Positions 1 to 43,714 of a stretch of DNA of 43,714 bases are shown here, piece by piece. Source of the DNA: Escherichia phage NTNC80A; the sequence record OP018999.1; one strand, 5' to 3'. The translations under genes were made by a program, and so were the position numbers. Under the pieces are notes generated by a model, which worked only from the letters and a program-made list of their open reading frames with translations, was not told the DNA's origin and ran no database searches. How positions within the stretch are numbered: the first letter of the stretch is position 1; each line of letters opens with the position of its first letter.

Positions 1-819
1 GTGGCTAGCGAGTTCGAGAATGGTAGGCTGATTGCGTACGATTTGTCTCAGACCCAAGGGTACACGGGGAATATGCGGTCTGCTGTGTCTGACATGCAGT
101 TCCATTCCACTAATATTGAAGGCTTCACACCACGGGACTTCTTCTATGACCTAGGACACTTCCCTACCTCTTACACTAATGGTTCTTTTATCATGAAGCA
201 TTGGCGAGAAAAAGACTTACAGGTACAATGGTATAATGGTAAAGCATTCATACGGCTACATGAAGAAGATGGCCGTGTAACACTTACCAGTAAAGAGGGC
301 CTCGCTTTGTATGACTTTCGTGCTACAAAAGACGTGACGTTCAAGGGTCGCAACTTTGTATTCAAAAACGATGCAAGTGCAGACGTATTGAAGTGGTTCG
401 GCGGTTCAGGAAATATCTCCACGAAAGGCAACATCTCACCTATGGTAGATGGGGTTCCCTCTCTAGGTACAAATTCCTATCGCTGGGGTGCAGTGCATTC
501 AGTAAATGGGACGTTACAAACCTCTGATGGTAGGCTAAAGGAAATACATGATATTAAACAAGAAGAACTTGATGCTGGGCTTGAATTGTCAGCAAGCCTA
601 ATCAAATATCGTTGGGATGGAGGAGAAAAGTTCCACTTTGGTTGTATCGCCCAAGAGGTAATGTTAATCATGGAGAAACATAAGCTAGACCCATTACAGT
701 ATGGAATGGTTCAGTATGATGAAGAGGCAGACATCTTTAGTGTAAACTACGCTGAATTGAACAGCTTCTGCATCGCAGCTCTGTCTAGGAGGTTGAATGC
801 CATTGATCAAATCAGTTAA
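1..819 (+). CDS. tail fibre / receptor-binding protein with C-terminal intramolecular-chaperone (peptidase S74-like) domain
   Basis: ORF starts with GTG at base 1 and ends TAA 817-819. C-terminal ~100 aa carry SDGRLKEI...FHFGCIAQEV...YAELNSF, the Ser-Lys autocleaving chaperone signature of phage fibres/endosialidases. The 5' end may be cut by the window; no SD is visible across the circular junction. Confidence 0.6.
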   Translation: MASEFENGRLIAYDLSQTQGYTGNMRSAVSDMQFHSTNIEGFTPRDFFYDLGHFPTSYTNGSFIMKHWREKDLQVQWYNGKAFIRLHEEDGRVTLTSKEGLALYDFRATKDVTFKGRNFVFKNDASADVLKWFGGSGNISTKGNISPMVDGVPSLGTNSYRWGAVHSVNGTLQTSDGRLKEIHDIKQEELDAGLELSASLIKYRWDGGEKFHFGCIAQEVMLIMEKHKLDPLQYGMVQYDEEADIFSVNYAELNSFCIAALSRRLNAIDQIS

Positions 820-946
820 GCAAAGTGCTGTACGCCAGAACACAGAAGAACTTATTCAATCAGGACGTGACCCTAAGCAGGCCTATGCCATTGCCAAGGA
901 TGTACAACGTCGTGCCATGAAGAAACCTTCTGCATCTTCTGCGTAG
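797..946 (+). CDS. hypothetical small basic protein (49 aa), last ORF before putative genome terminus
   Basis: ATG 797 follows an in-frame TGA; stop TAG 944-946. Overlaps the 3' end of the fibre ORF in another frame. Product MPLIKSVKQSAVRQNTEELIQSGRDPKQAYAIAKDVQRRAMKKPSASSA. No clear SD. Confidence 0.3.
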   Translation: MPLIKSVKQSAVRQNTEELIQSGRDPKQAYAIAKDVQRRAMKKPSASSA

Positions 947-1099
947 CAGGTAATATCTTAGTGTACACAAGGGCAGGCTTAGGTTTGCCCTTAGTGTATT
1001 CCAAAGGAGGTGGTATGTTATCTTTGTTGTGTATACTCAGTGATGTACTAGGTCGTAAGAGGTACATTCTTAGTGAAGACCAAATAAGGGATGAGAAGA

Positions 1100-1363
1100 T
1101 ACGGAGGTCGCTCACAAAGTAACCAAAGTCAAAATTTTGATGTAGGCGTGTGTCAGCTCTCTCGCCCTCGCCCTCGCCGGGACGTCCCCATAGGGTGCCT
1201 AGGCATTTCTAGGGCAGCGGGAGGGCCGCCACGGGCCTTTCTTAGTGAGGGCCAAAGGTTGCCTAGGCTAGCCGGAGGAGGGCCGAGGAGGGCCATTCAG
1301 GGCCGCTTGACAGCGTGTGTGGGCGTGGGCTATCTGTCCGTTTGTCGCTACGCTCCGCACTCA
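1100..1363. other. GC-rich repetitive tract, candidate terminal-repeat / concatemer-junction region
   Basis: Abrupt GC-rich non-coding DNA with short repeats (CTCGCC x3, GCCTAGG x2, GAGGGCC x3) between the last late gene and the first early promoter, where T7-group genomes carry their terminal redundancy. Confidence 0.35.
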
Positions 1364-1516
1364 CTACCTGACGTGTACCTTAGTTATTACCTTAGTAACT
1401 TCCTTATCGTGTACCTTGAGATAGTCTTAGTTACTACCTTAGTCACTTCCTTAGTAGCTACCTTAGTGAGTGGCTTAGTGGCTATCTATTGCTGTCTTAG
1501 TGTTACCTTAGTGATT
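1364..1516. repeat. tandem array of ~12 imperfect 12-bp repeats (core ACCTTAGT)
   Basis: Read directly: taccttagttat / taccttagtaac / ttccttatcgtg / taccttgagata / gtcttagttac / taccttagtcac / ttccttagtagc / taccttagtgag / tggcttagtggc ... taccttagtgat. Resembles the short repeat arrays next to the T7 terminal repeat. Confidence 0.7.
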
Positions 1517-9285: not shown

Positions 9286-9446
9286 TGGGAATTATTAAAC
9301 CAGTATTGAATATCGGTATTGAGATCCTATTCATGCTTGTGATCGCAGATTATGCTGCACGATATGGCTTCAAGAAAGCAGTGAAACTTATCGTTGCATC
9401 TGGTTTTATGATGTCAATGTTCTTTATTGTAACACGCTTTATCTAG
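9285..9446 (+). CDS. small hydrophobic membrane protein (53 aa), hypothetical
   Basis: ATG overlaps the helicase stop (TAATG). MGIIKPVLNIGIEILFMLVIADYAARYGFKKAVKLIVASGFMMSMFFIVTRFI has two hydrophobic segments. Confidence 0.4.
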   Translation: MGIIKPVLNIGIEILFMLVIADYAARYGFKKAVKLIVASGFMMSMFFIVTRFI

Positions 9447-9463
9447 TGTATTTATCAGGGCTT

Positions 9464-9479
9464 GTCTCACATGTGAGAC
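9464..9479. repeat. 16-bp perfect palindrome within an extended hairpin
   Basis: gcttgtctcaca/tgtgagacaggc gives a ~12-bp stem, followed by CTCTTATT; could act as a terminator or processing site. Confidence 0.7.
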
Positions 9480-9519
9480 AGGCTCTTATTAAGTACATTA
9501 ACTAATTGGAGATAATATT

Positions 9520-30415: not shown

Positions 30416-33358
30416 ATGGCAATTGAACGTCAAGCTGTACAAGGTCTTGAAAAGGTGCAGCCGAGAGTTGCGCCAACACCTATGTCTTTCACACCACGAC
30501 AAGTGAGCATCTCTGGTGGTACAGATGCCTCCGGTAGTAGGTTCTTGGAAGACCTAGTAAATGCTGCAAGTAGCGTGGCTGATGTCACCACTGCTATCCT
30601 TAATCAGCAAGTAGAAGATGATAAGGTTCGCCAGATGGACAGGGCGCTGTCTGGCATGATGCCTTCGGAGGATGCAACGGTAGGTGGTGCTCGTGCTCAC
30701 ATGCTGGTTAGTTTACAAAATGATGTAATCGCACAGACAACTGCGCTACAGGCAGAAGCACAGCGGTTTCAAGGGAGTGACGAAGATTGGGAGAACTATG
30801 TAGTTCAATCACGTAACGATGTGCAGAATAGGCTGTGGCAAAGTTACCCAGAACTTCGTGGTGACAAAGATTCTATGAGGCTTGTCACTAACGCGTTCAT
30901 GGAGCAGCAACCTAGAATTACTGCCACGAGAGCAGAGGCTAAACTTCGTCAAGAAGAAGAAGCGCGAATGCAATCTATGCAGTCTCGTATTATCATGGCT
31001 ACACGGGATGTAGCACCTGATGCCACTGGTGCAGCACTCATTCAGCTACAGAAAGAAGCACTGGCGATGGGTCTTAGTAAACCTGAGTTTGATCAAATGG
31101 TTGCTAAGATTGCATCTGATAGGGCGGCAGTAGGCGATGATAGTCTTATTCAGGGAACCAAAGCACTGGTGGACGATAAAGGTGTCTCTTTGTACGACCG
31201 TGTTGGTGCTTTGCAAACTGGAGAGATTCAAGCTAACAGAGCTTGGGCTGCACAGAATCAGGTCGCCCTCTTCGAGAAGAAGGATGCAGCTATAAAGGCA
31301 TTCGATGCAGGACAACTTACTCGTGAAGAGTTACTTCAGGTGATGCAGAATCACAATGAACTAACTGGTGGCACTGCTTGGTCAGATAGCGAGATTAAGG
31401 TTATCTTCGATAGACAAGCTAAGTCTAATGCAGAGAAAGCAAAGCTCGAAGATCTCATTGCACGAGGTGAATCTGGGTCGCCTTTAGGTTTACAGGACAT
31501 CAGTAAGGATGACAGAAAAACATATGCTGAAGCCTTAGTTAGTACCTACACTAAGTTGGCAGAAGATGAAATTGCCCGTACTGGTGCAACTGGAGAACAG
31601 GCTGAAGCTATTCGCGGTAGGTATGAGCAGATGCGTTATCTTAAGCTAGGGCAGCAACTTATTGAAGACCCAATCATTAAGGAAAGATATTCGTCGCTTA
31701 TGCAATTATCCTCTGCCAACCTTAAAGAGATGAATGTTGAGCCTGAAGCATTACAGACCATCATGCGAGCGCGGGACTCTATTCCAGAGGATGCACGTCG
31801 TGCTGTCATGGGAGACAAAGAGTATGCCTTTGTAGAGAACTACGATCTAGCAACTCGCATGGGGTATAACGCAGGTCAAGCTATTGAGTTTGCACAGAAT
31901 GCCTCTCGTGGAGAGAAGCTACAAGGTTCTGTACTTAAAGAACTGAATGATGATGTAGATGGAGTTGTAAGTGATGTGGCAGGAGGTAGTTGGCTTACTC
32001 GTGGCGATAATATGAGTGAGATGGGTCGTGACATTATGATGGAGGAGGCAAGTACAATTGCGAGAGCAATGAAGGTTGCAGGTCATAATAATGATACGAT
32101 TAAACGCCATCTTAAATCATATTTGACTAGCCAGTATACACAACTATCAGAGGGTTTCTTTACTCAAGGTGTTCTGGTGAAAGGTGATGTACGAACATTA
32201 GGTGACACTATAGGAGTAAACCAGAATGACCTTCCTATGGCGCTACGTCAATATATGGATAACAACAAGCAAGCACTTCTTGATGCATCAGGTGGCTTAG
32301 AAGGGGGTGATTTGTATTTTGATGTAGACGCGCAGCGTGGACTCTTTACCATACGTGCAGGCTCTGGTCGTGTACCTGTTACGCAGGCAATGCCTTTGTC
32401 TGAAATCAAAGGTCAGTCCTTGCTTAAGCAAAGATATGATGCAGAGGTTAAAGCCCGTGATGAGGGGCGTAAGAATTTTGAAGCACAGCAAATGAGGATG
32501 TGGGGTGCAGGTGGCTACCAAGCACAACCGCCTGCAAAGACTACAGCCAAAACTGTAGGCTCCCGTGGTATTGCTGACTTCTTAATGTCACCTGCCTTTG
32601 CATCCGGTGAGAACCTACCAGCAAACTTTGAGTTTGGGTATAAGAGGAATAATATGGACTTCTACAATTATGTAGCCAAGGCTGAGAATAGTGCCAATGT
32701 GGGCTTTGATAGAGTAGCTGGTGTTTATACACCCTACAAAGATGCACATGGTCAGTCTGTTGGGTATGGACACTTCCTTACTGCTGAAGAGAAGAAGAAC
32801 GGGTATATTATGATTGGCACAGATAAAGTGCCATTTACTCCGGGACAATCTCAACTAACACCAGAAAGAGCTATGCTCCTTCTACAGCAAGACTTGAAGA
32901 GCCATGTGCCAAGCACTTCAGGGTGGGCTGTTCCCTTCGAAGAGATGCACCCAGGTGTTCAGCGTGGCCTTATGGATTTGTCATATAATCTAGGCAAAGG
33001 CGGTATCCAGAATGCACCGAAGGCATATGCTGCGTTTAAGGCTGGCAAGTTCACTGATGGGTTTATTGAGATGCTATCTACTGCATCTACTGAAGGTAAA
33101 CGTAGCACTGGCTTGTTGGTTCGTAGGGCAGAAGCCTATAACCTTGCACAGAGTGGAGGTGCTGTCCCTAAGATCAGTGAAGTAGAGACACGAGCAGATG
33201 GTTCCATGTATGTGAAGTTTGCAGGACAAATGTCAGAGGCTTTCGTAAGTAAATCAATCTACAATCAGATTGGTAAGGATGGGTGGATGCAAGTGTATCC
33301 TCCAAAGCAAGGTGCGCTTGCACCTAACACTCAGATTGGTAGAATCAAACTAAGCTAG
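30416..33358 (+). CDS. internal virion (ejection) protein with C-terminal lysozyme-like domain
   Basis: 980 aa; C-terminal YKDAHGQSVGYGHFL resembles the T4 lysozyme YKDTEGYYTIGIGHLL region. Confidence 0.85.
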   Translation: MAIERQAVQGLEKVQPRVAPTPMSFTPRQVSISGGTDASGSRFLEDLVNAASSVADVTTAILNQQVEDDKVRQMDRALSGMMPSEDATVGGARAHMLVSLQNDVIAQTTALQAEAQRFQGSDEDWENYVVQSRNDVQNRLWQSYPELRGDKDSMRLVTNAFMEQQPRITATRAEAKLRQEEEARMQSMQSRIIMATRDVAPDATGAALIQLQKEALAMGLSKPEFDQMVAKIASDRAAVGDDSLIQGTKALVDDKGVSLYDRVGALQTGEIQANRAWAAQNQVALFEKKDAAIKAFDAGQLTREELLQVMQNHNELTGGTAWSDSEIKVIFDRQAKSNAEKAKLEDLIARGESGSPLGLQDISKDDRKTYAEALVSTYTKLAEDEIARTGATGEQAEAIRGRYEQMRYLKLGQQLIEDPIIKERYSSLMQLSSANLKEMNVEPEALQTIMRARDSIPEDARRAVMGDKEYAFVENYDLATRMGYNAGQAIEFAQNASRGEKLQGSVLKELNDDVDGVVSDVAGGSWLTRGDNMSEMGRDIMMEEASTIARAMKVAGHNNDTIKRHLKSYLTSQYTQLSEGFFTQGVLVKGDVRTLGDTIGVNQNDLPMALRQYMDNNKQALLDASGGLEGGDLYFDVDAQRGLFTIRAGSGRVPVTQAMPLSEIKGQSLLKQRYDAEVKARDEGRKNFEAQQMRMWGAGGYQAQPPAKTTAKTVGSRGIADFLMSPAFASGENLPANFEFGYKRNNMDFYNYVAKAENSANVGFDRVAGVYTPYKDAHGQSVGYGHFLTAEEKKNGYIMIGTDKVPFTPGQSQLTPERAMLLLQQDLKSHVPSTSGWAVPFEEMHPGVQRGLMDLSYNLGKGGIQNAPKAYAAFKAGKFTDGFIEMLSTASTEGKRSTGLLVRRAEAYNLAQSGGAVPKISEVETRADGSMYVKFAGQMSEAFVSKSIYNQIGKDGWMQVYPPKQGALAPNTQIGRIKLS
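32195..32218 (+). promoter_or_regulatory. promoter-like sequence inside the internal virion protein gene
   Basis: cattaggtgacactataggag: 16/18 match to the SP6-type core. Confidence 0.4.
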
Positions 33359-33375
33359 TGGTATACTCAAGGTTT

Positions 33376-33391
33376 GTCTCACATGTGAGAC
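33376..33391. repeat. 16-bp perfect palindrome (18 bp with flanks)
   Basis: tGTCTCACATGTGAGACa between two internal virion protein genes. Confidence 0.8.
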
Positions 33392-33425
33392 ATGCCTTCA
33401 TGAATGACACTAACTAGGAGGTAAC

Positions 33426-36400: not shown

Positions 36401-37229
36401 CAATAAGAGACTAAAGCAACATTTGATGGGTGAGAGACAGTTACCCAAAGCAGACCTTGAAGAAGTAGGCCTAAGTGAAGATGTCATGAAAAGGCTTAAG
36501 CGTCACTTTGATGATAACCCACTGTATGCTGATTACAATGGAGAAAAAGTTCGTATGATGAACTTTGATGCTATGGAGCCAGACCTGAGAGAGACAGTAG
36601 GTATTGCTGTGCGAAGAATGTCAGGGCGTCTTATTCAGCGTAACTTCATAGGTGATGAAGGTATCTGGATGAATAAATGGTGGGGTAAGGCATTAACGCA
36701 GTTTAAGTCATTCTCTATCGTCTCTATTGAGAAACAGCTAATCCATGATTTACGAGGTGATAAGATTCAGGCTGCACAGATACTTGCATGGTCTACCTTA
36801 CTAGGTTATGCATCTTATGCACTACAGATGCAGATGCAAGCAATCGGTAGGGAGGACAGAGACAAGTTCTTGAGGGATAAGTTTGAGACACAGAACCTCG
36901 CTATGGGTGTCTTTAATAAACTCCCACAAGTTGCAGGCTTCGGTCTTGCTGGTGATGCTTTGGCAACCTTTGGTCTAATGCCAGACTCCCTGATGCAAGC
37001 ACCGGGACGTATGGGCTTCCGTCAGCAAGGGTTTGGTGATTTGGTAGCAGGTGCTGGTGTAATCAGTGATACCGTTAATCTATCGCAAGCACTAGTTAAG
37101 TATGCCAATGGGGATGATGATGTCTCTACTAGGCAGTTGGTGGACAAGGTGCGTCGCCTTGTTCCTTTGGCAAATACTATTGGTGTAGGTCAGATGACTA
37201 AAGCCAGTGTAGACTTATTGGAGGATTGA
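33426..37229 (+). CDS. large internal virion (ejection) protein
   Basis: 1267 aa, size and position like T7 gp16. Confidence 0.88.
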   Translation: MVDGINQNWVAVTQRKLPPTFSQVAEAERKAEAQRVNDKVFQTAIESEWALYGGQRAYERHTTEFAEQEGYEVPESTKDELSKLYGYEIAQDIVKNVKSPEELQFRMSNAAADKDRADILARNGFTGFSAQIAAGILDPVGWAASLVAAPVAGAVKVGRLGRIIKTAALSGAENAALEAILAQGDYQRGVDDVLAAAGFGMIMGGTIGAATRERIASAGSRTAAERADTVIDDLDTVVKGADEFDLSAARAVREAMEYDAYMAARNYEPLRAREVDADMAILSHTDNLKANASVRMSASEKGQLKKQIRQLEAEAATLKGKKIDTVAEAAAAKGAPKSAADRLDLDVQKKALARRFDEPLADLQARLDELNAKLSRVNNVGKAKEELKRFSSLSREEQIKELGLDAPVRRVEMTRAVRDAVEAIRAERKKTPTEVHAEQVAEDAIKQRADDSVGAKRVEGSEIAGEQFDLSKNMEELMDDLAREAYQSEVRPINLKGLGSVSSVILNSENPVFRGLGLRLLENAQGGAYQGKTASILSDVYGNLIRHAERNRYNDGFSQFIKDNNLRAVDYLNPATTRDFNNQIYTAIVRGIPEDTPRGVKLAAEGIADKLKKALEIRKQAGERGFEDVQSAKDYIPVIYDGIKVTEAVNKLGSSEAVIHLLSKGYQTGKYKLGKKAADALAKVQYIRASDSTLSSRVAFDRVVSQQQQAQLIEDLKKAGVPDHIIDNFIEGTELAEMAESVSNRAKASMGINTQAEYGGLKVQDLLNTNVGELAENYGKEAAGGAALAAMGFPTRQSVLNAIDAAERAGRNMAGSNAKAIKQLRSEAEMLRDAVKLIYGNTIDADPNSGIVRGTRRVREITGLLRLGQMGFAQIPELARAISKMGLGTVLKSTPATKFLRSRAARKGGTAQGELLEPELREMEELLGYIGEDNWLTGWNVRHDEFGETADNLGKLSAIIDNGLAMGSRINTILSGFKAVQGGSEKIVARSINKRLKQHLMGERQLPKADLEEVGLSEDVMKRLKRHFDDNPLYADYNGEKVRMMNFDAMEPDLRETVGIAVRRMSGRLIQRNFIGDEGIWMNKWWGKALTQFKSFSIVSIEKQLIHDLRGDKIQAAQILAWSTLLGYASYALQMQMQAIGREDRDKFLRDKFETQNLAMGVFNKLPQVAGFGLAGDALATFGLMPDSLMQAPGRMGFRQQGFGDLVAGAGVISDTVNLSQALVKYANGDDDVSTRQLVDKVRRLVPLANTIGVGQMTKASVDLLED

Positions 37230-38188
37230 TGAGTTACACATTCACTGAACATACAGCGAATGGCACTCAAACTACCTTCCCCTTCCGGTTCGCTGGGAGG
37301 GACAAGGGGTACTTGAGGGCTTCTGATATTTTAGTTGAAGTAAGAAATGATGGTGTGTGGAACACAGTAAGTGGTTGGACACTTACAGGTACTAACCAGA
37401 TAACCTTTAATGTACCACCAGCGGCAAATACAAAACTTCGCATCAGGCGCGTTGTAGAGAAAGAAGAGCCTTATGCAGAGTTTGACCGTGGTGTAACCTT
37501 AGATATGAAATCTCTCAATAACTCCTTTATACATCTTTTGGAAGTATCTCAGGAGCTACTGGATGGTTTCTATCCAGATGGTTACTTTGTAAAGCAAGAT
37601 GTATCTTGGGGCGGACATAAGATTACTGATTTGGCTGATGGCACAAATCCGGGAGATGCAGTAAATAAAGGGCAGCTTGATGCCATTGACAAGAAGCATA
37701 CAGATTGGAACGCCAAACAGGACATTGAGATTGCTGGGCTTAAAGCGGGTATGACTTCTGGTATTGCACACAGAACTGTTCCTTGGTACACGATCGCCCA
37801 AGGAGGTGAGATTTCCGTAAAACCTCCTTATGAATTTCAAGATGCACTAGTTTTCCTTAATGGAGTATTGCAACACCAAATCGTAGGCGCATACTCTATA
37901 AGCAACAACACTATCACTTTCGCAGAGCCACTTGTGGCTGGCACAGAGGTGTACGTGTTGATAGGGAGTCGTGTGGCTACATCTGAACCTAATATTCAGT
38001 TAGAGTTGAACTTTGACTTAGTAGAAGGTCAACAAGTAGTAAAGATTGGCTCTGCATTTAAGTATATTGAGGTTTATCTTGATGGATTATTACAACCTAA
38101 ACTTGCGTATCAGGTAGACGGTGACATTGTTACTTTCTCAGAGGGAGTACCAGAATGCCGGATGACTGCTAAGATTATCACAGCATAA
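37229..38188 (+). CDS. tail fibre adaptor protein (T7 gp17 N-domain-like)
   Basis: N-terminus aligns with the T7 gp17 tail-attachment domain as recalled; no long fibre shaft follows. Confidence 0.8.
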   Translation: MSYTFTEHTANGTQTTFPFRFAGRDKGYLRASDILVEVRNDGVWNTVSGWTLTGTNQITFNVPPAANTKLRIRRVVEKEEPYAEFDRGVTLDMKSLNNSFIHLLEVSQELLDGFYPDGYFVKQDVSWGGHKITDLADGTNPGDAVNKGQLDAIDKKHTDWNAKQDIEIAGLKAGMTSGIAHRTVPWYTIAQGGEISVKPPYEFQDALVFLNGVLQHQIVGAYSISNNTITFAEPLVAGTEVYVLIGSRVATSEPNIQLELNFDLVEGQQVVKIGSAFKYIEVYLDGLLQPKLAYQVDGDIVTFSEGVPECRMTAKIITA

Positions 38189-41302: not shown

Positions 41303-41980
41303 ATGTTAGGTGTTACTGGACAAAGACGTGCTAGTCACAAGTCAAAGGTTGCGGCGGAAGTCGCACCTTTAGTAGATTTAAATTCAATAAAAGATATACA
41401 ATCTTATCTAAACCAGAGATACCTTTCCGGTAAGCAAGAGGGCTACGCTGTACTAGCTAAAGTAGATGGAGGTTATTCTCTTTATGTTGCATCTGGTTCA
41501 AAGGTATCAGATAAATGGGTTCTTATGAAACAAGGTGTTTCAGAAGACTCTTCCTCATTAGAGCTGGTGGATGTAATAAATACTAATGTTGAGAGCTTAA
41601 GTGATACTGTAGAGGTTAATGTAACAAAAGAAAGAACTGTCTGTGTTCAAACCCCAATGATAGACTTAGCAGGTACAGTTGTATACCGTCAGGCATTAAC
41701 CGCTAACCTTAATATTACTATTAATGAGAATGGCAGTCCGGGTGATACTGTTAAACTAAAAGTTAGTATACCAGATTTACCTGGTACAAGTGGTGGGTCT
41801 TACTATACGCTGGATAATGTATTGTGTACAGCTTATAGTGAAAATGACCCTGTTACAGTAAACATAGATGTAGATGCAGCTAATACAAGCAGTATTACAG
41901 TATCTTTGAGGAAGGAGACAGCTACAGATATTAAGCTATCTTTCTTATTCATATGGTCTATGCCTATGGAGGTAGTATAG
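41303..41980 (+). CDS. paralog 3 of the SGKQ(K/E)G family with beta-rich C-terminal extension (225 aa)
   Basis: ...YLSGKQEGYAVLAKVDGGYSLYVASGSKVSDKWVL, then Thr/Val/Asn-rich strand-like sequence. Confidence 0.65.
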   Translation: MLGVTGQRRASHKSKVAAEVAPLVDLNSIKDIQSYLNQRYLSGKQEGYAVLAKVDGGYSLYVASGSKVSDKWVLMKQGVSEDSSSLELVDVINTNVESLSDTVEVNVTKERTVCVQTPMIDLAGTVVYRQALTANLNITINENGSPGDTVKLKVSIPDLPGTSGGSYYTLDNVLCTAYSENDPVTVNIDVDAANTSSITVSLRKETATDIKLSFLFIWSMPMEVV

Positions 41981-42869: not shown

Positions 42870-42898
42870 TACATAGCTTTATGTATCAGTGTCTTACG

Positions 42899-42921
42899 AT
42901 TTACTGGACACTATAGAAGAG
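42899..42921 (+). promoter_or_regulatory. phage RNAP promoter (consensus) driving the fibre genes
   Basis: atttactggacactatagaagag; +1 G at 42916. Confidence 0.75.
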
Positions 42922-43000
42922 ATAAGATAGCGCCGTTCTTTTGAGCGGCCTATTACTAGCCAATCTTCATAGGGAGGGTTGGAAAGTAATAGGAGATAGC

Positions 43001-43714
43001 ATGGCTAAATTAACCAAACCTAAGACTGAAGGAATCTTGCATAAAGGACAATCTTTGTATGAGTACCTTGATGCGAGAGTTTTAACATCAAAGCCGTTTG
43101 GTGCTGTAGGTGGGGGCACTTCTTCTCAAGTTCGCCTATTTACTTCTGATGGTACTTCTCGGACAGTGTCCCTCACCAACGGTAACGTGCGTCTTTCTAC
43201 CAGTAGCACAGGCTATTTGCAGTTAGGTGCTGATGCAATGACCCCAGATAGTACTGGTACATACGCATTAGGTTCCGCCAGTCGAGCATGGTCTGGTGGT
43301 TTTACTCAAGCAGCATTCACTGTTACCTCAGATGCTCGGTGTAAAACAGAACCTCTTACTATCTCAGATGCCTTACTGGATGCTTGGTCTGAAGTTGACT
43401 TTGTGCAGTTTCAGTATTTGGATCGTGTTGAGGAGAAGGGTGCAGACTCAGCTAGATGGCACTTTGGCATCATCGCTCAGCGAGCTAAGGAGGCTTTCGA
43501 ACGTCACGGTATAGATGCACATCGCTATGGCTTCTTGTGCTTCGACAGTTGGGATGATGTATACGAGGAAGATGCCAATGGCTCTCGTAAACTGATTACA
43601 CCAGCAGGTTCTCGCTACGGTATTCGTTACGAGGAAGTACTGATATTAGAGGCTGCGTTGATGCGTCGGACTATTAAGCGTATGCAGGAGGCACTAGCTT
43701 CCCTGCCTAAGTAA
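43001..43714 (+). CDS. tail fibre protein with C-terminal intramolecular-chaperone (peptidase S74-like) domain
   Basis: ATG 43001 with SD AGGAGA (ORF track 42941); SDARCKTE ... ARWHFGIIAQRA ... YGIRYEEV autocleavage/chaperone signature; TAA is the last codon of the window. Confidence 0.8.
   Translation: MAKLTKPKTEGILHKGQSLYEYLDARVLTSKPFGAVGGGTSSQVRLFTSDGTSRTVSLTNGNVRLSTSSTGYLQLGADAMTPDSTGTYALGSASRAWSGGFTQAAFTVTSDARCKTEPLTISDALLDAWSEVDFVQFQYLDRVEEKGADSARWHFGIIAQRAKEAFERHGIDAHRYGFLCFDSWDDVYEEDANGSRKLITPAGSRYGIRYEEVLILEAALMRRTIKRMQEALASLPK

What the first reader, a model, noticed from the sequence alone, without database searches (positions are those of the whole stretch)
1..819. Second fibre gene starts exactly at the window edge with GTG and no Shine-Dalgarno
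The ORF begins at base 1 directly after the TAA that ends the window (...CCTAAGTAA|GTGGCT...). Either the record is a rotated circular assembly and this gene is translationally coupled to the upstream fibre, or the 5' end is truncated. Its N-terminal ~170 aa has no recognisable adaptor-binding region, so it may attach to the first fibre rather than to the tail; its chaperone domain starts near SDGRLKEI.
Basis: inference. Interest (0 to 1): 0.5.

Follow-up and report, generated by a model that had tools for sequence, protein, structure and literature searches.

The report
Truncated tailspike gene remnant at record edge
The "second fibre gene" is only the last 40% of a phage tailspike gene, left when about 1.3 kb of DNA was lost, and it sits at the window edge only because a circular assembly was opened there; it is an ordinary gene remnant, although the phage appears to have lost the enzyme part of both its tailspikes.

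Summary
The window is a circularly permuted genome of a K1-5/K1E-like podophage (Vectrevirus). The family's physical left end maps to about base 1162, so 43714/1 is not a genome end. ORF 1..819 exists as described: GTG at base 1, directly after the TAA at 43712-43714, no Shine-Dalgarno, Peptidase_S74 chaperone from Ser175 (SDGRLKEI).

It is not a complete gene. It matches codons 412-683 of the 683-codon second tailspike of Vectrevirus DIJ06P1 (93% nt), and the GTG is that gene's internal Val412 codon. Relative to DIJ06P1, 1318 bp are missing:
- the terminator and ribosome-binding site between the two spike genes;
- the N-terminal peptide that docks this spike class on adaptor gp37;
- about two thirds of the beta-helix.

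The upstream "first fibre" (43001..43714) is a K5 lyase with an in-frame 395-codon deletion. Both junctions lie at short sequence repeats (p about 0.009 and 0.0008).

The most likely reading is a recent deletion remnant, weakly translated if at all and unable to join the virion. An assembly gap at the window edge is not excluded without reads. None of about 30 related genomes measured has so short a spike module. The ORF itself is ordinary; a spikeless phage would be mildly interesting.

The parts
1..819 (+). ORF B: the 3' remnant of a gp47-class beta-helix tailspike gene. It corresponds to codons 412-683 of the 683-codon DIJ06P1 homologue. aa 1-~135 are the last beta-helix rungs, ~135-174 the conserved stalk, and 175-272 the S74 intramolecular chaperone.
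   Evidence: 93.8% aa identity over 272/272 to OZ035817.1; full-length hits are 683-1095 aa, with the ORF B start mapping inside them; matches only the C-terminal parts of tailspike profiles.
1..3 (+). GTG: the internal Val412 codon of the ancestral gene, not an ancestral start codon. It has no SD and is preceded directly by TAA.
523..816 (+). Peptidase_S74 intramolecular chaperone region of ORF B (Ser175 onward, SDGRLKEI...).
43001..43714 (+). ORF A: a K5-lyase (gp46) gene with an in-frame 1185-bp (395-codon) internal deletion. It keeps the MAKLTKP adaptor-docking heptapeptide (aa 1-37) and the last ~73 aa of the mature lyase plus its S74 chaperone. The catalytic beta-helix is gone.
   Evidence: (aa 35-110 match the C-terminal end of the mature K5 lyase structure 2X3H).
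43107..43112 (+). Deletion junction 1: TAGGTG, present at both breakpoints in the reference, with a GGTGCTGTA 9-mer also shared upstream.
   Evidence: p ~0.0008.
43701..43714 (+). Left side of deletion junction 2 (..CCCTGCCTAAGTAA|GTGGCTAGC.. continuing at base 1). The reference breakpoints are TGCCTAAGTAAG|CAAC and TGCCAAGTTTG|TGGC.
   Evidence: p ~0.009.
42892..42922 (+). Last phage-RNAP promoter (ATTTACTGGACACTATAGAAGAG) in the window. It is the only promoter of this type that could drive ORF A, ORF B and the gp48-like gene.
797..946 (+). gp48-like small gene with a strong SD (AGGAGG, -10.8 kcal/mol). It overlaps the last 23 nt of ORF B, the same arrangement as in relatives.
1162..1395 (+). 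Start of the physical genome. A single copy of the direct terminal repeat region begins at 1162. The end coordinate is inferred from the 234-bp repeat of K1-5 and was not measured.
37229..38188 (+). Intact adaptor protein gp37 (319 aa, T7-tail-fibre N-terminal domain), 98% identical to LL11. It is the docking platform for both spikes.

Best explanation
ORF 1..819 is the 3' remnant of the second (gp47-class) tailspike gene of a Vectrevirus, not a complete gene.

A ~1.3-kb deletion between short imperfect repeats joined the stop codon of the first spike gene directly to codon 412 of the second. It removed the intergenic terminator and ribosome-binding site, the N-terminal undecapeptide that docks this spike class on adaptor gp37, and roughly the first two thirds of the beta-helix.

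The window is a circular permutation of the genome, opened at this gene boundary. The ORF therefore appears to start at the edge; the true genome end lies at about base 1162.

The remnant can be transcribed only as part of the message from the promoter at 42892-42922. It could be translated only by inefficient termination-reinitiation at TAA-GTG. Any product lacks its anchor and starts inside a beta-helix rung, so it should not be incorporated into virions or be enzymatically active.

The neighbouring first spike gene has separately lost its catalytic domain by an in-frame deletion. The represented genome therefore encodes the adaptor, a docking stub and a remnant, and no depolymerase.

- **Shown:** homology, breakpoints, missing signals, permutation.
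- **Inferred:** the deletion mechanism, the lack of function, and that the 43714/1 joint exists in real DNA.

The confidence given covers a real junction whether it is fixed in the stock or present only in a sub-population. That ORF B is a 3' fragment of a longer tailspike gene, and that its GTG is not an ancestral start, is close to certain on either reading.
For: Homology and truncation:
- ORF B aligns over its full length to residues 412/413-683 of a 683-aa tailspike.
- Almost all homologues that match ORF B from its first residues are 683-1095 aa long, with the ORF B start mapping inside them.
- In the AF2 model of the full-length homologue (pLDDT 79), residue 412 ends a strand within a confidently modelled beta-sheet-rich region. 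Foldseek places the model among beta-helix glycosidases and tailspikes.

Breakpoints and what is missing:
- The deletion is 1318 bp: an 85-bp intergenic region with a hairpin-T terminator and AAGGAGG, plus 411 codons (the terminator is annotated at the same place in LL11).
- The deleted DNA and protein are absent from the rest of the window, and the undecapeptide is absent from all frames.

Expression signals:
- SD energy is -0.1 against a median of -9.3 kcal/mol.
- No phage promoter lies between 42922 and base 1600.

Permutation: the K1-5 end maps to 1162.

Evidence that the junction is real:
- The breakpoint flanks resemble each other more than random position pairs do (p ~0.009).
- A second, internal deletion of the same style lies 600 bp upstream (p ~0.0008).
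- The window begins and ends exactly on codon boundaries of adjacent ORFs. This is expected if a circular assembly was opened at a gene boundary or at a graph branch at the junction, and unlikely for a random contig break.

Age: dN/dS of 0.11 against DIJ06P1, with no internal stops, indicates a recent truncation.

Docking rules come from PMC6872550, and the precedent of truncated gp46 in K1E from PMC6966330.
Against: - No reads are available, so the 43714/1 joint is not directly observed.
- The junction sequence was not found in viral, metagenome or species-representative genome collections, and the proteins are not in the contig index. There is no independent replicate.
- None of about 30 related genomes measured has both spikes truncated. 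A phage with a stub gp46 and an intact second spike (the K1E layout) would be far more usual a priori.
- The microhomology at junction 2 is imperfect, and it was measured against a 93%-identical relative rather than the true parent.
Confidence: 0.78

Rival explanations
1. Assembly gap. The real phage has a complete ~683-codon second tailspike (a K1E-like layout of stub gp46 plus one working spike). The window is a linear or wrongly closed contig whose two ends are not adjacent in the DNA, so the ORF is cut by the contig end.
For: - Stub-gp46 plus intact-spike genomes are common, with modules of ~2815 bp in many records, while double truncation is unseen.
- Records in this genus are sometimes opened inside a spike gene, for example KY435490.1.
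- dN/dS of 0.11 and an intact reading frame fit a gene that is still functional.
- No independent sequence with the junction was found.
Against: - The contig would have to end exactly on the last base of a stop codon and begin exactly in frame on a GTG.
- The two ends show breakpoint-type similarity (p ~0.009).
- The intergenic region and the N-terminus of this spike class are conserved in the genus, so a strain-variation break would not be expected right after the TAA.
- An unambiguous deletion of the same kind lies 600 bp away inside the window.
- k-mer assemblers cannot create joins at 1-11 nt of imperfect homology (general knowledge of de Bruijn assembly).
Confidence: 0.15
2. The junction is real but only in a sub-population. 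The sequenced lysate mixes a parent with an intact second spike and a deletion variant that is complemented in trans. The assembly graph branched at the junction, which is why the contig starts there. This is nested within the best explanation and differs from it only in what the viable phage is, so its confidence is part of the 0.78 given there and not additional to it.
For: - The window starts and ends exactly at the deletion junction, which is what a graph branch at that point followed by overlap trimming would produce (inference).
- A spikeless genome is unprecedented among relatives.
- The truncation is recent.
Against: - There is no sign of heterogeneity in the sequence itself.
- The first deletion did not break the contig.
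- Opening a circle at a gene boundary explains the edge equally well.
Confidence: 0.2
3. One reading: a genuine stand-alone second fibre, translated from GTG(1) by coupling to the upstream gene, which joins the virion by binding the first fibre rather than the tail.
For: - Stop and start are adjacent (TAA-GTG) and in one operon.
- The S74 chaperone that drives trimerisation is intact.
- The ORF is open for 272 codons.
Against: - The start codon is an internal Val codon of a longer gene.
- The ORF begins inside a beta-helix rung.
- It has no docking peptide and no SD.
- The supposed partner is a 237-aa deletion stub with no recognisable docking domain.
- Almost all homologues that align from the ORF B start carry a long N-terminal extension.
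- Both spikes of this group dock on gp37 (PMC6872550).
Confidence: 0.04
4. Stop-codon readthrough makes an ORF A-ORF B fusion, since the two ORFs are in frame and separated by one TAA.
For: They share a frame across the junction.
Against: - The shared frame has a 1-in-3 chance.
- UAA followed by G is an efficient terminator in E. coli (general knowledge).
- ORF A's S74 domain self-cleaves after about Ser110 (the mature K5 lyase structure ends there), so anything fused downstream would be released anyway.
- No recoding signal was looked for or seen.
Confidence: 0.01

Closest known systems
Second tailspike of Vectrevirus DIJ06P1 (OZ035817.1, 683 aa; gp47-class spike with an N-terminal undecapeptide, a pectate-lyase-like beta-helix and an S74 chaperone)
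   Same: ORF B is 93.8% identical in amino acids (93% in nucleotides) to its residues 412-683. The downstream gp48-like gene overlaps it in the same way.
   Different: ORF B lacks residues 1-411 (docking peptide and most of the beta-helix) and the upstream terminator and RBS.
K1E gp46 (111-aa truncated first spike) and truncated receptor-binding proteins of Klebsiella podophages (KpV767, 2044-307w)
   Same: These are examples of 'retrograde' loss of a spike's enzymatic part in phages with two receptor-binding proteins (PMC6966330, PMC6872550). ORF A of this window fits the pattern: docking peptide kept, catalytic domain lost.
   Different: The known stubs keep the N-terminal anchor. ORF B is the opposite: the anchor is lost and the C-terminus kept. 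K1E gp46 shares only ~24 N-terminal residues with ORF A and has no S74 domain. In this window both spikes are truncated in one genome.
K5 lyase KflA / K1-5 gp46 (632 aa; PDB 2X3H)
   Same: ORF A residues 35-237 are 99.5% identical to its C-terminus, and residues 1-37 match its N-terminus, including MAKLTKP.
   Different: An in-frame deletion of residues 38-432 removes the lyase beta-helix. No database record has this deletion.
Deletions between short direct repeats in T7-group phages
   Same: Both junctions lie at short direct repeats: TAGGTG plus a 9-mer at junction 1, and AAGT..G at junction 2.
   Different: The mechanism is inferred from the scars only. Junction 2 has weak, imperfect homology.

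Membership tests
gp47-class second tailspike of SP6/K1-5-like phages | N-terminal conserved undecapeptide (MIQRLGSSLVK / MLQRLGASMVK) that docks on the C-terminal site of adaptor gp37 | tested here: not met
   The motif is absent from ORF B and from all six frames of the window. The N-terminal 411 aa of the homologue have no tblastn hit in the window. The definition comes from PMC6872550.
gp47-class second tailspike of SP6/K1-5-like phages | Complete central receptor-binding or depolymerase domain (here a right-handed beta-helix) | tested here: not met
   The Pfam pectate-lyase-like hit lies at aa 32-222 of the full-length homologue and is absent from ORF B. ORF B starts at residue 412, at the end of a strand inside the beta-sheet-rich region of the model.
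gp47-class second tailspike of SP6/K1-5-like phages | Own translation signals (RBS) downstream of the terminator that follows the first spike gene | tested here: not met
   Both are present in DIJ06P1 and LL11 and both are deleted here. SD energy is -0.1 kcal/mol.
gp47-class second tailspike of SP6/K1-5-like phages | Genomic position between the first spike gene and the gp48-like gene at the right end of the genome | tested here: met
Peptidase_S74 intramolecular-chaperone tail proteins | C-terminal S74 domain beginning at the cleavage serine | tested here: met
   Pfam PF13884 scores 30.5 bits (cut-off 22) at aa 175-227 of ORF B and 56.4 bits at aa 110-170 of ORF A. ORF B also matches the T5 pb1 and Kp7 fibre structures. 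Self-cleavage itself cannot be tested here.
Truncated 'stub' receptor-binding proteins that keep the anchor (K1E gp46 type) | Retains the N-terminal docking peptide and lacks the catalytic domain | tested here: not met
   Not met for ORF B, which has no docking peptide. Met for the neighbouring ORF A, which has MAKLTKP and has lost lyase aa 38-432.
Translationally coupled gene pair (termination-reinitiation) | Stop and start adjacent or overlapping on one mRNA, with downstream expression dependent on upstream translation | tested here: inconclusive
   The geometry is met (TAA immediately followed by GTG; no promoter or terminator between them). Dependence of expression cannot be tested with these tools.

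The most novel reading that the evidence does not exclude
The genome is that of a viable, naturally 'spikeless' Vectrevirus that kept adaptor gp37 but lost the catalytic parts of both tailspikes by two recent microhomology deletions. It would infect capsule-free or rough hosts through the tail itself, in line with the report that SP6 infects rough Salmonella (PMC6966330). Alternatively, it is a helper-dependent deletion variant that borrows spikes from a co-infecting parent.
Probability: 0.3. Interest if true: 0.45.

Novelty: new member of a known kind. Interest (0 to 1): 0.25.

Why it matters
**Annotation.** The ORF should be labelled a tailspike gene fragment or pseudogene, not a second fibre with an unusual GTG start. 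The record should be re-oriented to begin at the terminal repeat (~1162).

**Biology.** If the junction is real, the genome carries no depolymerase, while about 30 related genomes measured all carry at least one. It would then be a natural test case for how far K1-5-like phages depend on capsule-degrading spikes. It would also show how quickly spike modules are shed by short-repeat deletions, which matters when such phages are propagated for therapy on surrogate hosts.

Tried and rejected
- **Exact searches for independent copies, all empty.** The 43714/1 junction, the window start and the ORF A deletion junction were searched in IMG/VR. The conserved start of ORF B and the ORF A junction were searched in JGI metagenomes, and the ORF B start in GTDB species genomes. 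The junction therefore has no independent replicate and the source contig could not be recovered.
- **Exact-protein look-ups.** ORF A, ORF B and the RNA polymerase are not on record.
- **Word-indexed protein search with ORF B.** It found one weak hit. The exhaustive HMMER search was needed.
- **Alternative in-frame starts.** TTG43, ATG73, GTG85 and ATG94 have at best weak SD-like matches (-4.9 and -5.7 kcal/mol), with poor spacing for ATG73. They were rejected as real starts because all are internal codons of the homologue.
- **Overlapping ORFs.** The minus-strand ORFs under 1-819 and ORF 1091-1522 have no family hits.
- **RNA genes.** The Rfam and tRNA scans found nothing.
- **Engineered deletion.** Considered and rejected because both junctions lie inside coding sequence at short repeats rather than at clean gene boundaries.
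- **Old pseudogene.** Rejected because dN/dS is 0.11 and there are no internal stops.
- **Literature.** The search for T7 short-repeat deletions returned nothing usable, so that point rests on my own knowledge.

Full report
**What the window is.** The 43,714-bp window is a complete, circularly permuted genome of a K1-5/K1E/SP6-like podophage (Autographiviridae, Molineuxvirinae, Vectrevirus).
- It is about 92% identical over its structural half to phages LL11 and CrRp3.
- It carries at least ten copies of the SP6-type promoter core GGACACTATAGAAGAG on the + strand.
- K1-5 has an exact 234-bp direct terminal repeat. K1-5 position 1 aligns to window 1162. The unique sequence at the K1-5 right end runs without a break into that point (window 1113-1197). 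The K1-5 early region follows from window 1307 onward.
- The physical genome end therefore lies inside the window near 1162. The window holds one copy of the repeat, and 43714/1 is not a physical end. In the natural linear order, ORF A (43001..43714), ORF B (1..819) and the gp48-like gene (797..946) sit next to one another at the right end of the genome, as in relatives.

**Checking the observation.**
- ORF 1..819 starts with GTG at base 1, and the window ends with the TAA of the upstream ORF.
- The anti-SD duplex energy upstream of the GTG is -0.1 kcal/mol. The median for the best candidate starts of 35 other genes is -9.3, and none is weaker than -3.5.
- Pfam Peptidase_S74 covers residues 175-227, and SDGRLKEI begins at residue 175.

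**What ORF B is.** ORF B is the C-terminal 40% of a tailspike.
- Its only close relative in 50,697 phage records is in Vectrevirus DIJ06P1 (OZ035817.1), at 93.8% amino-acid identity over all 272 residues.
- In DIJ06P1 that stretch is residues 412-683 of a 683-aa ORF beginning MLQRLGASMVKFKSK....
- An exhaustive HMMER search of 1.84 billion representative proteins gave the same picture. The top hit is 683 aa, matching at 413-683. Almost all other hits that align from ORF B residues 2-4 are 800-1095 aa long, with the ORF B start mapping to internal positions 505-779.
- PHROG tailspike profiles match only by their C-terminal parts.
- Residue 412 is a valine, so the GTG at base 1 is an internal Val codon and not an ancestral start.
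- An AlphaFold model of the full-length homologue (mean pLDDT 79) places residue 412 at the end of strand 406-412, within a confidently modelled beta-sheet-rich region. Foldseek matches the model to beta-helix glycosidases, lyases and phage tailspikes. ORF B therefore begins inside a folded domain and not at a domain boundary.

**What is missing.** Relative to DIJ06P1, 1318 bp are absent between the TAA and the GTG.
- The first 85 bp are the intergenic region, containing a hairpin-T terminator (GCAGTGC-GTAA-GCACTGC-TTTT) and the ribosome-binding site AAGGAGG. The terminator is annotated at the same place in LL11.
- The other 1233 bp are 411 codons.
- Neither this DNA nor its protein occurs anywhere else in the window.
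- In this phage group the first spike docks on adaptor gp37 through the heptapeptide MAKLTKP and the second through the undecapeptide MIQRLGSSLVK (Leiman et al. 2007, as summarised in PMC6872550).
- The window contains MAKLTKP once, at the start of ORF A, and no undecapeptide in any frame.
- The adaptor itself is intact (37229..38188, 98% identical to LL11).

**The neighbouring gene.** The 'first fibre' is not a fibre either.
- ORF A (237 aa) is K5 lyase (gp46). Residues 1-37 and 35-237 match the N- and C-termini of the 632-aa enzyme, at 99.5% identity for the C-terminal part.
- Residues 38-432 have been removed by an in-frame 1185-bp deletion.
- The junction lies in TAGGTG, which is present at both breakpoints, with a shared GGTGCTGTA 9-mer just upstream.
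- ORF A residues 35-110 align to the very end of the mature K5 lyase structure 2X3H. After self-cleavage, the product would be a stub of about 110 aa carrying the docking peptide.
- No database record has this deletion.

**Is the 43714/1 joint real?** This cannot be observed without reads. Four points favour a real recombination joint.
1. In DIJ06P1 the breakpoints read TGCCTAAGTAAG|CAAC and TGCCAAGTTTG|TGGC. In a Monte-Carlo test against random position pairs, this similarity has p ~0.009. The unambiguous internal junction has p ~0.0008.
2. The window ends exactly on a stop codon and begins exactly on the next in-frame codon. This is expected if a circular assembly was opened at a gene boundary, or if traversal began at a graph branch at the junction. 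It is very unlikely for a random contig break.
3. A de Bruijn or overlap assembler cannot create joins at such short, imperfect homology (general knowledge of assemblers).
4. A deletion of the same style sits 600 bp away.

Three points count against it.
- No independent copy of the junction exists in the collections searched.
- I measured the spike module, from the ATG of the gp46-type gene to the ATG of the gp48-type gene, in about 30 relatives. It is about 2815 bp in K1E-type genomes and 3642-4397 bp in two-spike genomes, against 1510 bp here (1510 + 1185 + 1318 = 4013, the DIJ06P1 value).
- A genome with no intact spike is therefore unprecedented in this set, whereas a stub gp46 with one intact spike is common.

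I put the real-junction reading, whether fixed or in a sub-population, at about 0.8 and an assembly gap at about 0.15.

**How it most likely works.** The last phage promoter lies at 42892-42922, just upstream of ORF A, and none lies within 1-1600. With the terminator deleted, ORF B is co-transcribed with ORF A.
- Translation could occur only by reinitiation of terminating ribosomes at the adjacent GTG. This is possible in principle but inefficient without an SD and with GTG (inference).
- Readthrough is unlikely at UAA-G. It would also be pointless, because ORF A's chaperone domain cleaves itself off.
- Any product would lack the docking peptide and would begin mid-domain, so it should not assemble on gp37 or degrade polysaccharide.
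- dN/dS against DIJ06P1 is 0.11 (36 synonymous and 17 non-synonymous differences) and there are no internal stops. The sequence therefore diverged as part of a working gene, and the truncation is recent.

**Comparison with what is known.** Truncated spike genes are documented in this group and in Klebsiella podophages: K1E gp46, KpV767 and 2044-307w (PMC6966330, PMC6872550).
- Those stubs keep the anchor and lose the enzyme. ORF A fits that pattern, although K1E gp46 shares only about 24 N-terminal residues with it.
- ORF B is the reverse: the anchor and signals are lost and the C-terminus is kept, which is simply a gene remnant.
- Deletion between short direct repeats is well known in T7-group phages (from my own knowledge; the literature search found nothing usable).
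- The review PMC6966330 notes that SP6 also infects rough Salmonella. A spikeless relative growing on capsule-free hosts is therefore conceivable.

**Verdict.** It is partly wrong: this is not a stand-alone second fibre, and nothing suggests that it docks on the first fibre. The feature is an ordinary remnant whose position at the edge is a record artefact. The side finding, that both spikes of one Vectrevirus genome are gutted by recent short-repeat deletions, is modestly interesting and can be tested with the original reads.

Noticed in passing
window 43001-43714 (junction at 43107-43112): The upstream 'first fibre' is a K5 lyase gene with an in-frame 395-codon deletion between TAGGTG repeats. 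It leaves the MAKLTKP docking peptide fused to the last ~73 aa of the mature enzyme plus its S74 chaperone. No phage record has this deletion.
   Followed up: yes
window 43001-43714 + 1-797 (spike module): The module from the first spike ATG to the gp48-like ATG is 1510 bp. It is ~2815 bp in K1E-type relatives and 3642-4397 bp in two-spike relatives, about 30 records in all. The genome as represented encodes no depolymerase.
   Followed up: partly
window ~1162-1395: The physical genome end and the single copy of the direct terminal repeat (starting TCGCCCTCGCCCTCGCCGGG) lie inside the window. The record should be re-oriented to start here.
   Followed up: yes
window 41303-41980: A 225-aa ORF lies between the gp42-like gene and the M15 endolysin. 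It matches phrog_32357 and is a longer paralogue of the two upstream gp41/gp42-family genes. It is only 68% identical to its nearest phage-record homologue, which makes it far more diverged than the ~92% backbone.
   Followed up: partly
window 9443-9504 and 33355-33416: A 62-nt repeat (76% identical) is centred on the perfect palindrome TGTCTCACATGTGAGACA, just downstream of two large genes. It may be a terminator or an RNA-processing hairpin.
   Followed up: no
L005 (KY435490.1, phage K1E record): This GenBank K1E record is itself opened inside the endosialidase gene: a 325-aa 'hypothetical protein' CDS abuts the record end. Arbitrary record starts within spike genes therefore occur in this genus.
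   Followed up: no
window 969-993: A GC-rich hairpin (GGGCAGGCTTAGGTTTGCCC) follows the gp48-like gene and is followed by a 35-codon ORF with a good SD (1015-1122). The consensus terminator scan did not flag it.
   Followed up: no
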